From the sequence record OR498728.1: DNA of 64,000 nucleotides. One strand, given 5' to 3'. Source of the DNA: Escherichia phage ZX4221. Below, piece after piece: positions 1,062-8,977 of the stretch. The position numbers and the translations under genes are program-made. Positions within the stretch are counted from its first letter, which is position 1; every line of letters begins with the position of its first letter. Under the pieces are notes generated by a model, which worked only from the letters and a program-made list of their open reading frames with translations, made no database searches and was not told the origin of the DNA.

Positions 1062-2414
1062 ATGTGGAATCCAATTGTTAATGTAGATATTACATTGAAC
1101 ACCGCAGGAACTACAAGAGAAGGTTTTGGGCTACCACTATTTTTAGCTTCAACAGATAACTTTGAAGAAAGAGTCCGTGGTTACACTTCCTTAACTGAAG
1201 TTGCTGAAGATTTCGATGAAAACTCTGCTGCATATAAGGCTGCTAAACAACTTTGGAGTCAGACTCCTAAAGTAACCCAGCTTTATATTGGTAGACGTGC
1301 TATGCAGTACACTGTATCAATTCCTGACTCTGTTACTGAAAGTACCGATTATTCTTTAACTGTAGCTGTTAGAGGTGGAGTTTCTCAACCATTCCAGTAC
1401 ACTTCACAGTCAGAAGATACTGCTGAGAAGGTGTTACAGCAGCTTAAAACACAGATTGAAGCAGAACCTTCTGTAAAAGACCTTGTTACTGTCAATGTAA
1501 CTGGTACTGGTGGTTCAGCAACAATGGTAATCACCAAAGCTGGTGACAACGACTTCGTGAAGGTTACTACTACAGCACAAACAGTGTCAATTGCAAGCAC
1601 AACTGCTGACACAGCATCGACTGCTCTGGCAGCTATTGAAGCTTATTCGACTGACTGGTATTTCATTGCAGCAGAAGACAGAACTCAACAGTTTGTCTTA
1701 GCAATGGCTTCTGAGATTCAAGCTCGTAAGAAGATTTTCTTTACAGCTAACTCTGATGTAGCAGCACTGCAAGGTACAGAATTAGCCAGTGCAAATGACG
1801 TTCCAGCACAACTTGCTAAGAATAAGTACACTCGTACAGTTTGCTTGTGGCATCACACAGCAGCAGAAGATTATCCAGAAATGGCATACATTGCTTATGG
1901 TGCTCCATATGATGCAGGTTCAATTGCTTGGGGTAACGCACAGTTAACTGGTGTAGCTGCTTCTCTACAGCCATCTAATCAAAGACCTCTGACAAGTATT
2001 CAGAAGTCAGCTTTAGATGCACGTCACTGTAACTTTATTGACCTTGATGGTGGTGTTCCAGTGGTTCGTAGAGGGATTACTTCTGGTGGGGAATGGATTG
2101 ATATCATCCGTGGTGTTGACTGGTTAGAATCAGACCTGAAAACTTCTCTGAGAGACTTGCTAATTAACCAGAAGGGTGGTAAGATTACTTATGATGATAC
2201 TGGTATTACCCGTATTCGTCAAGTCATTGAAACCTCTCTGCAAAGAGCAGTCAACAGAAACTTCCTGTCATCTTACACAGTTAATGTTCCTAAAGCCTCT
2301 CAAGTTGCTTTAGCAGACAAGAAAGCTCGTATCCTGAAAGATGTTACCTTCGCAGGTATCTTAGCAGGGGCTATCTTGGATGTTGACTTGAAAGGTACAG
2401 TGGCTTACGAATAA
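1062..2414 (+). CDS. tail sheath protein (putative)
   Basis: 450 aa, immediately upstream of 148 aa tube-sized ORF, chaperone pair and tape measure; canonical contractile-tail gene order; RBS AAGGGG. Confidence 0.55.
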   Translation: MWNPIVNVDITLNTAGTTREGFGLPLFLASTDNFEERVRGYTSLTEVAEDFDENSAAYKAAKQLWSQTPKVTQLYIGRRAMQYTVSIPDSVTESTDYSLTVAVRGGVSQPFQYTSQSEDTAEKVLQQLKTQIEAEPSVKDLVTVNVTGTGGSATMVITKAGDNDFVKVTTTAQTVSIASTTADTASTALAAIEAYSTDWYFIAAEDRTQQFVLAMASEIQARKKIFFTANSDVAALQGTELASANDVPAQLAKNKYTRTVCLWHHTAAEDYPEMAYIAYGAPYDAGSIAWGNAQLTGVAASLQPSNQRPLTSIQKSALDARHCNFIDLDGGVPVVRRGITSGGEWIDIIRGVDWLESDLKTSLRDLLINQKGGKITYDDTGITRIRQVIETSLQRAVNRNFLSSYTVNVPKASQVALADKKARILKDVTFAGILAGAILDVDLKGTVAYE

Positions 2415-2429
2415 TAGAGGTAAATTGGA

Positions 2430-2876
2430 ATGGCTATGTATCAGCAATATTCCCCTAAAGACGTTGTGTGTAGCTGGAATGGTATTGCCATTGAAGGCTT
2501 TGCCCCAGACTCATTCTTACGTCTACAGAGAACATCACCACTTGTGACACCAGTTGTAGGTGCAGGTGGTCAAGTTGCTCTGACAAGAAATGCAGACAAG
2601 ACAGGTACTATTGAGATTGAGCTAATGCAGACTTCTCTCTCTAATCAGATGCTTTCTGCAATTCAAGCTAAACAAGACAATATGGAACTTGAAGAAGATA
2701 TCTCTTCTAACTTCGTAATCTACGACCCATCAGGCTCTGTTCTGGCAACTGGTATTAATGCTTGGTTGCAGGAACTACCACAGATTGAACTTGGTCGTGA
2801 CCAGAACTCTAAAACTTGGATTTTTGGTTGTGAGAAGCTAGACTACACTTCTACAATTCCAGCGTCAAGTGTTTAA
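2430..2876 (+). CDS. tail tube protein (putative)
   Basis: 148 aa ORF between sheath-sized gene and chaperone/tape-measure genes; followed by strong terminator. Confidence 0.5.
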   Translation: MAMYQQYSPKDVVCSWNGIAIEGFAPDSFLRLQRTSPLVTPVVGAGGQVALTRNADKTGTIEIELMQTSLSNQMLSAIQAKQDNMELEEDISSNFVIYDPSGSVLATGINAWLQELPQIELGRDQNSKTWIFGCEKLDYTSTIPASSV

Positions 2877-2888
2877 TAAATCCTATAA

Positions 2889-2920
2889 GGGGGAGACTTT
2901 AAAAGGTCTTCCCCTTTTTT
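2889..2920 (+). terminator. rho-independent terminator-like hairpin
   Basis: GGGGGAGAC / GTCTTCCCC stem followed by TTTTTT. Confidence 0.6.
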
Positions 2921-2949
2921 GTTTCTTTTAAAAGTATTAAGGAATCACA

Positions 2950-3348
2950 ATGAAAACAGAAGCTAGAGTAATTAATGGTAAGAAAGTAAATATCGTTCTG
3001 CTTGGGGCAAGAGATGGTATTAAGATGTCTATGAAGTTGGGTAAAATTGTTGTTCCAACCTTTGCACAGATGCTGTCAAGCCTGACTGATAAAGATAAGA
3101 AAGAAGCTCCAATGGTTCCATTTAAAGAACTTGTTGAGGCTTGTTTTGACAGAATTGAAGAAATTAACCTTGAAGAAATGGCTACCCTGCTATTTCAAGG
3201 GGCAACTGTTGATGACTTCCCACTTAATATTGATACATACTTCCAAGCAAACTATGGCGAATTTATTGATTACTTAGCATTTGCGCTGGAGGCAAACTTC
3301 GGAAGTTTTTTCGAAGCAAGCATTTTCAAAAGCCTAACTTCTCAGTAA
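2950..3348 (+). CDS. tail assembly chaperone (putative, G-like)
   Basis: 132 aa ORF between tube and tape measure; contains slippery TTTTTTC near 3' end. Confidence 0.45.
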   Translation: MKTEARVINGKKVNIVLLGARDGIKMSMKLGKIVVPTFAQMLSSLTDKDKKEAPMVPFKELVEACFDRIEEINLEEMATLLFQGATVDDFPLNIDTYFQANYGEFIDYLAFALEANFGSFFEASIFKSLTSQ

Positions 3349-3350
3349 AC

Positions 3351-3589
3351 ATGGGTAACACTCTACAGACACCACTAACTGATGCTGCTGTAGAGGCAAC
3401 CTATGAAGAAGCAGACGAGATGAAATTTGTGCTTGCTATTTATGGTATGGAAGGGTGTAAAGAAACACTTGACCAACTCTTTGCTATGACATTCTCTGAT
3501 TTATTATCATTGAGACAATTTCTTGAAATTCAGAGGTCGTATAAAGAGGAAATTGCTTACAACGAACTTAGAAGAGCAGGAAAAATGTA

Positions 3590-3590
<1 letters not shown>
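3351..3590 (+). CDS. tail assembly chaperone frameshift extension (putative GT-like C-terminal part)
   Basis: 79 aa ORF in -1 frame relative to upstream ORF; -1 frame is open from 3270 through 3351; weak own RBS. Confidence 0.4.

Positions 3591-8977
<5,387 letters not shown>

What the first reader, a model, noticed from the sequence alone, without database searches (positions are those of the whole stretch)
3270..3590. Probable programmed -1 frameshift in the tail assembly chaperone pair
Between the tube and tape-measure genes lie a 132 aa ORF and a 79 aa ORF in the -1 frame. The heptamer T TTT TTC (3306-3312) is a classical slippery site in the zero frame of the first ORF. The -1 frame is open from 3270 to the start of the second ORF, so a slip would fuse the first ORF to the whole second ORF. 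This matches the conserved G/GT chaperone arrangement of tailed phages.
Basis: partly seen in the sequence, partly recalled or inferred. Interest (0 to 1): 0.45.

Follow-up and report, generated by a model that had tools for sequence, protein, structure and literature searches.

The report
Known tail-chaperone -1 frameshift site
This is the ordinary programmed -1 ribosomal frameshift that lets a Felix O1-like phage make a short and a long tail-assembly chaperone from one gene; it is well supported by comparison with relatives and is already annotated in near-identical phages.

Summary
The window is a Felixounavirus myophage, about 98.7% identical to Escherichia phage JN01. ORF1 (2950-3348, 132 aa) is a tail assembly chaperone (Pfam Phage_TAC_15). 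It carries T_TTT_TTC at 3306-3312 in phase. The -1 frame is open from 3270 to 3590, so a slip gives a 213-aa fusion.

All 24 homologue lineages sampled (under 60% aa identity, GC 35-65%) keep T_TTT_TTY in phase, with the -1 extension open and conserved as protein. Most lineages have no start codon for that extension.

A Buttiauxella prophage provides a natural control. It encodes the long form as a separate in-frame gene that aligns across the predicted junction, and its short gene has lost the slippery codons.

I found no downstream stimulatory structure. A Shine-Dalgarno-like GGAGG lies 13 nt upstream and is conserved at synonymous sites, so it is the likeliest stimulator.

The frameshift is already annotated as a joined CDS in Salmonella phage Mushroom (97% identical) and in Citrobacter phage Michonne. 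It is also stated in the Moogle and Mijalis genome announcements. I found no experimental proof for this phage group. The finding is real but ordinary and of low interest.

The parts
2430..2876 (+). Context: tail tube-type virion structural protein gene (148 aa)
   Evidence: phrog_280 at 1e-47. Pfam KPP10_Orf10 at 3e-07. It follows the sheath gene 1062-2414 (phrog_205).
2887..2926 (+). Context: intrinsic terminator-like hairpin plus T-run between the tube and chaperone genes
   Evidence: 13-bp stem followed by TTTTGTTTCT. The same site is annotated as a rho-independent terminator in phage AYO145A.
2950..3348 (+). Short chaperone gene ('G' equivalent), 132 aa, with SD AGGA at 2940-2943
   Evidence: Pfam PF21822 Phage_TAC_15, 71.5 bits against a cut-off of 22. 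phrog_1613 tail assembly chaperone.
3288..3292 (+). Shine-Dalgarno-like GGAGG, 13 nt 5' of the heptamer: candidate frameshift stimulator (inferred)
   Evidence: Anti-SD duplex -9.3 kcal/mol, in the top 2.4% of windows in the locus. The Glu codon is GAG in 19 of 24 lineages against 9.6 expected, P=5e-5. The spacing lies within the 9-14 nt range given in PMC5009743.
3306..3312 (+). Slippery heptamer T_TTT_TTC in the zero frame of ORF1 (Ser-Phe-Phe)
   Evidence: Conserved as T_TTT_TTY in all 79 IMG/VR loci and 24 lineages. U_UU.U_UU.C is listed among efficient E. coli motifs in PMC4066793.
3312..3590 (+). -1 frame extension ('T' part), 92 codons. Predicted long product = join(2950..3312, 3312..3590), 213 aa
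   Evidence: Frame open from 3270 to 3590. Fusion sequence. The T part is conserved as protein across lineages. phrog_4963 tail assembly chaperone.
3351..3353 (+). ATG of the annotated 79-aa ORF2, with no SD upstream; probably not the main route of expression
   Evidence: The upstream sequence CTTCTCAGTAAAC has no SD. The ATG is ATA in Felixounavirus contig L023 and is absent in most lineages.
3590..5821 (+). Context: tail length tape measure protein gene (743 aa)
   Evidence: phrog_4036, full length, E=0.

Best explanation
This is programmed -1 ribosomal frameshifting in the tail assembly chaperone gene of a Felix O1-like myophage.

Most ribosomes translate ORF1 to its stop at 3348 and make the 132-aa short chaperone. 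A minority slip when tRNA-Phe occupies both the P site (UUU, 3307-9) and the A site (UUC, 3310-12). Both tRNAs slip back one base onto U UUU UU and re-pair. Reading continues from 3312 in the -1 frame to 3590. The result is a 213-aa long chaperone made of 121 aa of the short form plus a 92-aa extension.

By analogy with lambda gpG/gpGT, the shared N-terminal part would coat the tape measure protein and the extension would recruit the tube protein. Neither form would end up in the virion.

The slip is probably enhanced by pairing of the 16S rRNA 3' end with GGAGG (3288-3292), 13 nt upstream, and not by a downstream RNA structure.

What is shown: the sequence anatomy, the family-wide conservation and the reality of the fused architecture. 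What is inferred: that slippage happens, its efficiency, the role of the SD-like element and the binding partners.
For: 1. Anatomy is exact.
2. ORF1 is Pfam Phage_TAC_15, and both ORFs hit PHROG 'tail assembly chaperone' families. They lie between the tube and tape measure genes.
3. T_TTT_TTY is in phase, with the -1 frame open, in Felixounavirus, Mooglevirus, Suspvirus, Kolesnikvirus, Yersinia P778, Pectobacterium Arno18 and the Vequintavirinae phage PBES02.
4. The same holds in all 79 IMG/VR loci, which form 24 clusters under 60% aa identity with GC 0.35-0.65. The codon before Phe-Phe is always NNT, from three codon families (AGT, TCT, TGT), and the first Phe codon is always TTT. The naive probability from local codon usage is 7e-23.
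5. The only blastn match to Erwinia phages is window 3295-3335, at 92.7% identity.
6. The -1 part is conserved as protein. Its first start codon lies far downstream in most lineages, and one Felixounavirus has ATA in place of the ORF2 ATG.
7. Natural control: in a Buttiauxella prophage the long form is a separate in-frame 201-aa gene. It aligns with the predicted fusion across the junction (residues 81-208, E=6e-13), and the short gene there encodes Ser-Phe-Phe as TCA TTC TTC, which is not slippery.
8. Phage CL1 has T7 in place of T6, and its record annotates the in-frame 213-aa protein.
9. The slippage is annotated as a joined CDS in phages Mushroom and Michonne and is stated in PMC4319497 and PMC5543628.
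10. U_UU.U_UU.C is among the efficient -1 motifs in E. coli (PMC4066793).
11. SD-like element: GAG in 19 of 24 lineages against 9.6 expected, P=5e-5. Mean anti-SD duplex is -9.1 kcal/mol against -3.4 for control windows. Several lineages carry GGAGGTGA.
Against: - No protein-level evidence exists for this phage group in the literature I could search.
- There is no downstream hairpin or pseudoknot at the usual 5-9 nt spacing. The 50 nt after the heptamer fold at -3.2 kcal/mol with z=+0.63. RNAalifold finds no consensus pairs among Ounavirinae, and there is no Rfam hit.
- ORF2 has its own ATG two bases after the ORF1 stop, so some independent expression by coupling cannot be excluded in this phage.
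- The 24 lineages are not statistically independent.
- The IMG/VR search patterns included the Phe-Phe dipeptide, so its amino-acid conservation is partly ascertained. The codon choice is not.
- The SD-like element overlaps a conserved Leu-Glu-Ala/Val-Asn motif, and five lineages, including Kolesnikvirus, have GAA instead of GAG.
Confidence: 0.9

Rival explanations
1. Transcriptional slippage. RNA polymerase adds an extra U on the T6 run, and a fraction of mRNAs then encode the fusion in frame. The protein product would be the same and only the mechanism would differ.
For: - The site is a homopolymer, and some lineages have T7-T8.
- A weak hairpin followed by the T-run (3286-3312) scores as terminator-like.
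- Upstream hairpins can stimulate polymerase slippage (PMC5009743).
- Conservation of the T-run alone cannot separate the two mechanisms.
Against: - Six U's is shorter than the runs (about 9) on which bacterial RNA polymerase slips appreciably. This point rests on my own knowledge and was not tested here.
- 18 of 24 lineages keep C, not T, at position 7. A slippage mechanism would favour a longer run there.
- The upstream hairpin is not maintained across lineages.
- The run always sits in the X_XXY_YYZ phase.
Confidence: 0.05
2. There is no recoding. ORF2 is translated on its own from ATG 3351 by termination-reinitiation coupling to ORF1. The two chaperones are separate 132-aa and 79-aa proteins, as most GenBank records annotate them.
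For: - The ATG lies 2 nt after the ORF1 stop.
- Most records list two separate CDSs.
- The PHROG family phrog_4963 is modelled on the 79-aa form.
Against: - There is no SD before ATG 3351.
- The ATG is replaced by ATA in a Felixounavirus contig and is absent in most lineages. In these the first -1-frame start lies 100-200 nt into the conserved region.
- This reading does not explain strict synonymous conservation of AGT TTT TTY.
- The in-frame Buttiauxella homologue shows that the domains function when joined.
Confidence: 0.04
3. The heptamer is a by-product of a conserved Ser-Phe-Phe motif needed by the chaperone protein, and it has no decoding role.
For: F120 and F121 are invariant in the protein alignment.
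Against: - Amino-acid conservation does not fix the third position of the Ser/Cys codon or TTT over TTC, least of all in 60-65% GC phages where TTT makes up 16-38% of Phe codons.
- Where the long form is a separate gene, the same Ser-Phe-Phe is encoded as TCA TTC TTC.
Confidence: 0.01

Closest known systems
Lambda gpG/gpGT and the conserved tail-chaperone frameshift of dsDNA phages (Levin 1993; Xu, Hendrix and Duda 2004, as cited in PMC5009743 and PMC5543628)
   Same: - Two overlapping ORFs lie between the major tail/tube gene and the tape measure gene.
[quoted passage not shown]
   Different: - The heptamer here is T_TTT_TTC, not lambda's G_GGA_AAG (the lambda sequence is from my own knowledge).
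- The host phage is a contractile-tailed myophage.
- The chaperone family is PF21822.
- A candidate upstream SD-like stimulator is present.
- Product ratio and binding partners are untested here.
Annotated frameshifted tape measure chaperones of Felix O1-like phages: Mushroom (NC_041923), Michonne (NC_028247), Moogle and Mijalis
   Same: This is the same gene, heptamer and junction. Mushroom is 97% identical in DNA and carries a joined CDS over the equivalent coordinates. Michonne is annotated 'ribosomal slippage'. The Moogle and Mijalis papers state the frameshift.
   Different: Nothing of substance. Those annotations are also computational.
E. coli dnaX -1 frameshift (tau/gamma)
   Same: A heptamer of two identical-tRNA codons with an internal Shine-Dalgarno-like stimulator at 9-14 nt upstream (PMC5009743).
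   Different: dnaX also uses a strong downstream hairpin and A_AAA_AAG. Here no downstream structure is detectable. The SD role is inferred only.
Phage P2 gpE/gpE+E' (myophage tail chaperone frameshift on a T-rich heptamer)
   Same: A myophage chaperone pair located before the tape measure gene, with a T-run slippery site. This comparison is from my own knowledge and was not checked here.
   Different: It belongs to a different protein family, and no sequence similarity was tested.

Membership tests
G/GT-type tail assembly chaperone with programmed -1 frameshift | Gene pair located between the major tail/tube gene and the tape measure gene | tested here: met
   Sheath 1062-2414, tube 2430-2876, ORF1 2950-3348, ORF2 3351-3590 and tape measure protein 3590-5821.
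G/GT-type tail assembly chaperone with programmed -1 frameshift | Second ORF in the -1 frame, open across the 3' end of the first ORF | tested here: met
   The -1 frame is open from 3270 to 3590, giving a 79-nt overlap.
G/GT-type tail assembly chaperone with programmed -1 frameshift | Slippery X_XXY_YYZ heptamer in phase within the overlap | tested here: met
   T_TTT_TTC at 3306-3312. The motif is efficient in E. coli according to PMC4066793.
G/GT-type tail assembly chaperone with programmed -1 frameshift | Slip site and frame relationship conserved in diverged relatives | tested here: met
   24 of 24 lineages and 79 of 79 IMG/VR loci. Seven phage genera or groups among GenBank records.
G/GT-type tail assembly chaperone with programmed -1 frameshift | Downstream ORF lacks its own translation start signals | tested here: inconclusive
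   The window has ATG 3351 but no SD. The ATG is lost in L023 and absent in most lineages.
G/GT-type tail assembly chaperone with programmed -1 frameshift | Both short and long products made in a fixed ratio, and both needed for tail assembly | not testable with these tools
   This needs proteomics and genetics. No such data were found for Ounavirinae.
G/GT-type tail assembly chaperone with programmed -1 frameshift | Shared domain binds the tape measure protein and the extension binds the tube protein | not testable with these tools
   Inferred from lambda (PMC5009743).
Pfam PF21822 Phage_TAC_15 | Score above the curated gathering threshold | tested here: met
   71.5 bits against 22, E=1.2e-19, residues 9-124.
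dnaX-like SD-stimulated -1 frameshift | Anti-SD-complementary sequence 9-14 nt 5' of the heptamer | tested here: met
   GGAGG at 3288-3292 with a 13-nt spacer and -9.3 kcal/mol duplex. Enriched across lineages.
dnaX-like SD-stimulated -1 frameshift | Downstream stem-loop 5-9 nt after the heptamer | tested here: not met
   No stable or conserved structure was found.
Programmed transcriptional slippage | Long homopolymer run (about 9 A/T for bacterial RNA polymerase, from my own knowledge) | tested here: not met
   The run is T6 here. It is followed by C in 18 of 24 lineages.

The most novel reading that the evidence does not exclude
Across the whole PF21822 chaperone family, in phages of hosts from 35% to 65% GC, the -1 frameshift uses one fixed signal. 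That signal is T_TTT_TTY plus an internal Shine-Dalgarno-like GGAGG(UGA) at a constant 13-nt distance upstream, with no downstream RNA structure needed. This would be a dnaX-style 5' stimulator acting alone in a phage tail-chaperone frameshift, and it does not appear in the annotations of these phages that I saw.
Probability: 0.45. Interest if true: 0.3.

Novelty: already known. Interest (0 to 1): 0.15.

Why it matters
For annotation, it means the 79-aa 'ORF2' listed as a separate gene in most Felixounavirus records should be a joined CDS, join(2950..3312, 3312..3590), giving a 213-aa product.

Biologically it is one more instance of the chaperone frameshift that is near-universal in long-tailed phages.

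There are two small additions:
- The exact heptamer is conserved across a very wide GC range, and a candidate upstream SD-like stimulator accompanies it.
- A natural control shows the slippery codons decaying once the long form is encoded by its own gene.

Tried and rejected
- **Downstream stimulatory structure.** Folding of 3313-3400 gave z -0.56. The 50 nt after the heptamer gave -3.2 kcal/mol and z +0.63. RNAalifold on 10 Ounavirinae sequences gave 0 pairs. No Rfam family matched. Rejected for this phage. Six of 24 distant lineages do have a local hairpin with z below -1.5, against about 8% of control windows.
- **Long-range pairing of 3316-3328 with 3421-3436.** It was seen in the 181-nt fold, z -2.15. 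The partner is invariant in Felixounavirus, Mooglevirus and Suspvirus, so no covariation is available. It is absent in Kolesnikvirus and L041, although the 5' half is conserved there. Not supported.
- **Upstream hairpin 3286-3302 as the reason for GAGG conservation.** The pairs are broken in most lineages. Rejected in favour of the SD-like reading.
- **T7 variant in IMG/VR.** No match was found, so CL1 is isolated. It could be a homopolymer sequencing error or a rare variant.
- **Sequence search of the PDB with the fusion.** Nothing significant was found.
- **The search for homologous proteins with the fusion.** It returned only 132-aa short forms, so no deep alignment was available for the extension. 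I did not run structure prediction.
- **Literature search.** I found no experimental demonstration in Felix O1-like phages.

Full report
**Identity of the window.** A megablast of 2400-6000 finds 296 phage records. The best is Escherichia phage JN01 at 98.7%, and nearly all are Felixounavirus (Ounavirinae) myophages of E. coli, Salmonella and Shigella. The local gene order is:
- tail sheath, 1062-2414 (phrog_205);
- tube-type virion protein, 2430-2876 (phrog_280; Pfam KPP10_Orf10);
- ORF1, 2950-3348;
- ORF2, 3351-3590;
- tape measure protein, 3590-5821 (phrog_4036).

**Check of the observation.** Every coordinate is right.
- ORF1 codons start at positions = 1 mod 3 and ORF2 codons at = 0 mod 3, so ORF2 is in the -1 frame.
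- TTTTTTC occupies 3306-3312 with zero-frame codons AGT TTT TTC (Ser-Phe-Phe), which is X_XXY_YYZ in phase.
- The -1 frame has its last stop at 3267-3269 and is open from 3270 to 3590.
- A tandem slip gives join(2950..3312, 3312..3590). This is 121 aa plus 92 aa, a 213-aa product with junction ...ANFGSFF|RSKHFQKPNFSVNMGNT....
- In-phase slippery heptamers occur at 0.004 per codon in this window, so about 0.1 is expected in the overlap. In-phase T_TTT_TTN occurs twice in about 20,000 codons.
- Of 25 ORFs followed by a long -1 ORF, only this pair has a heptamer in the overlap, apart from one antisense shadow ORF.

The heptamer alone is therefore only mildly improbable. The case rests on comparison with relatives.

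**What the genes are.** ORF1 matches Pfam Phage_TAC_15 (PF21822) at 71.5 bits against a cut-off of 22. It also matches PHROG tail assembly chaperone families. ORF2 matches phrog_4963, also labelled tail assembly chaperone. No solved structure is detectable by sequence.

**Conservation in GenBank relatives.** T_TTT_TTC is present in phase, with the -1 frame open through to just before the tape measure gene, in:
- Mooglevirus (Michonne);
- Suspvirus (SUSP1);
- Kolesnikvirus (phiEa21-4, Prophecy);
- Yersinia phage P778;
- Pectobacterium phage Arno18;
- the Vequintavirinae phage PBES02, which is only 26% identical in ORF1.

In the blastn search the only stretch still alignable with Erwinia phages is window 3295-3335, at 92.7% identity. 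This is an island of nucleotide conservation centred on the slip site.

**Conservation in IMG/VR.** A scan with an alignment of ORF1 homologues gave 79 loci. All carry T_TTT_TTY in phase inside the -1 overlap. They fall into 24 clusters below 60% aa identity, with locus GC from 0.35 to 0.65.
- The codon before Phe-Phe is always NNT. It comes from three codon families (AGT, TCT, TGT).
- The first Phe codon is always TTT, even where TTT makes up only 16-38% of Phe codons.
- The naive product of local codon-usage probabilities is 7e-23.

Two caveats apply. The lineages are related, so this figure is not a true P value. One of the two search patterns required Phe-Phe, so the dipeptide is partly ascertained, although its codons are not.

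**The -1 extension.** It is conserved as protein across lineages at 76-123 aa. In most lineages its first possible start codon lies 100-200 nt into it. One Felixounavirus contig (L023) has ATA where the window has the ORF2 ATG.

**A natural control.** The homologue P0086 lies in a prophage on a 1.88-Mb Buttiauxella noackiae contig. There the short chaperone (126 aa) is followed by a separate in-frame 201-aa gene and then the tape measure gene. That 201-aa protein aligns with the predicted window fusion across the junction (query 81-208, 30% identity, E=6e-13). The fused architecture is therefore a real protein. In the short gene of that prophage the same Ser-Phe-Phe is encoded as TCA TTC TTC, which is not slippery. 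Where no slip is needed, the synonymous positions are free to change.

**Phage CL1.** The Escherichia phage CL1 record has T7 in place of T6 at exactly this site and annotates the 213-aa protein in frame. No other T7 copy exists in IMG/VR. This is either a homopolymer error or a rare variant.

**Mechanism.** E. coli has a single tRNA-Phe (anticodon GAA; this is general knowledge). It reads both UUU and UUC and can re-pair with UUU in both the P and A sites after a one-base slip. U_UU.U_UU.C is listed among the efficient -1 motifs in E. coli and is used by IS elements (PMC4066793).

I found no downstream stimulator:
- the 50 nt after the heptamer fold at -3.2 kcal/mol, z +0.63;
- 3313-3400 has z -0.56;
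- RNAalifold on ten Ounavirinae sequences gives no pairs;
- no Rfam family matches.

Upstream, GGAGG at 3288-3292 lies 13 nt before the heptamer. That is inside the 9-14 nt range given for SD-like stimulators of -1 frameshifting (PMC5009743, section 36).
- The Glu codon within it is GAG in 19 of 24 lineages, against 9.6 expected from local usage (Poisson-binomial P=5e-5).
- Several lineages carry GGAGGTGA.
- The mean anti-SD duplex energy at this fixed position is -9.1 kcal/mol, against -3.4 for control windows. In the window it is -9.3, in the top 2.4% of the locus.
- The alternative that GAGG is kept for a small upstream hairpin (3286-3302) fails, because the pairs are broken in most lineages.

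I therefore rate an SD-like stimulator as likely but unproven. It overlaps a conserved Leu-Glu-Ala/Val-Asn motif, and five lineages lack it.

**Rivals.**
- Transcriptional slippage would give the same protein. A run of six U's is short for it, however, and 18 of 24 lineages keep C at position 7 instead of a T that would lengthen the run.
- Independent translation of ORF2 from ATG 3351 cannot be excluded as a minor route in this phage. It does not explain the heptamer conservation or the lineages without a start codon.
- A pure protein constraint on Ser-Phe-Phe is contradicted by the codon evidence and by the Buttiauxella control.

**Comparison with what is known.** This is the conserved tail-chaperone frameshift of dsDNA phages, described for lambda G/GT and generalised by Xu, Hendrix and Duda 2004, as cited in PMC5009743 and PMC5543628. 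It is already annotated for this very gene:
- Salmonella phage Mushroom (Felixounavirus, 97% identical) has a joined CDS over the equivalent coordinates.
- Citrobacter phage Michonne is annotated 'ribosomal slippage'.

Many other records, including RefSeq AYO145A, still list two separate CDSs. I found no experimental demonstration for Ounavirinae.

**Verdict.** My confidence that a -1 ribosomal frameshift produces the 213-aa long chaperone is 0.9. The finding is already known and of low interest. The modest additions are the family-wide fixed heptamer, the candidate upstream SD-like stimulator and the natural unshifted control.

Noticed in passing
L092:4001-4986 (Buttiauxella noackiae JPRU01000001.1, prophage): A relative encodes the short chaperone and a separate in-frame 201-aa long form, which is a duplicated chaperone domain plus the extension. 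There is no overlap, and the short gene has non-slippery TCA TTC TTC. This looks like a case of a frameshift replaced by gene duplication, or the reverse.
   Followed up: partly
L009:1553-1559 (Escherichia phage CL1, OK040806.1): The slippery run is T7, not T6, so the record encodes only the 213-aa fusion in frame and no short form. It is either a homopolymer sequencing error or a variant that makes only the long form. No other T7 copy exists in IMG/VR.
   Followed up: partly
window 3313-3331: The 19 nt right after the heptamer (GAAGCAAGCATTTTCAAAA) are almost identical in Felixounavirus, Kolesnikvirus and contig L041, although the rest of the gene is too diverged for blastn. Dual-coding constraint is the simplest reason. 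A role as a spacer or in ribosome contact was not tested.
   Followed up: partly
window 3316-3328 and 3421-3436: There is a long-range complementarity: GCAAGCAUUUUCA against UGAAAUUUGUGCUUGC. It starts 3 nt after the heptamer. The 181-nt fold has z -2.15. The partner is present but invariant in Mooglevirus and Suspvirus and absent in Erwinia phages.
   Followed up: partly
window 3361-3395: There is an 8-bp hairpin, CUCUACAG...CUGUAGAG, about 50 nt after the slip site. Mooglevirus and Suspvirus have a different stem (CCCC/GGGG) at the same place. RNAalifold does not support a shared structure, and it lies too far downstream to be a classical stimulator.
   Followed up: partly
window 2887-2926: A strong intrinsic terminator-like hairpin (13 bp plus a T-run) sits between the tube gene and the chaperone gene. 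It is annotated as a terminator in phage AYO145A. It would lower chaperone and tape measure transcript levels relative to sheath and tube.
   Followed up: no
window 3286-3312: The slip site, together with a weak upstream hairpin, scores as terminator-like (6 pairs, then AAGTTTTTTC). The hairpin is not conserved in other lineages.
   Followed up: yes
window 1-64000: ARAGORN finds no tRNA genes in the 64-kb window, although Felix O1-like phages carry about 22-25 (PMC5543628). The tRNA cluster must lie in the part of the genome outside the window.
   Followed up: no
L070, L077, L081 and related high-GC IMG/VR loci, about 7 nt after the heptamer: High-GC members of the family have a perfect 9-bp stem (CCGCGAGCG...CGCTCGCGG) starting about 7 nt after T_TTT_TTC. 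This is a classical frameshift hairpin that the Felix O1-like phages lack.
   Followed up: partly
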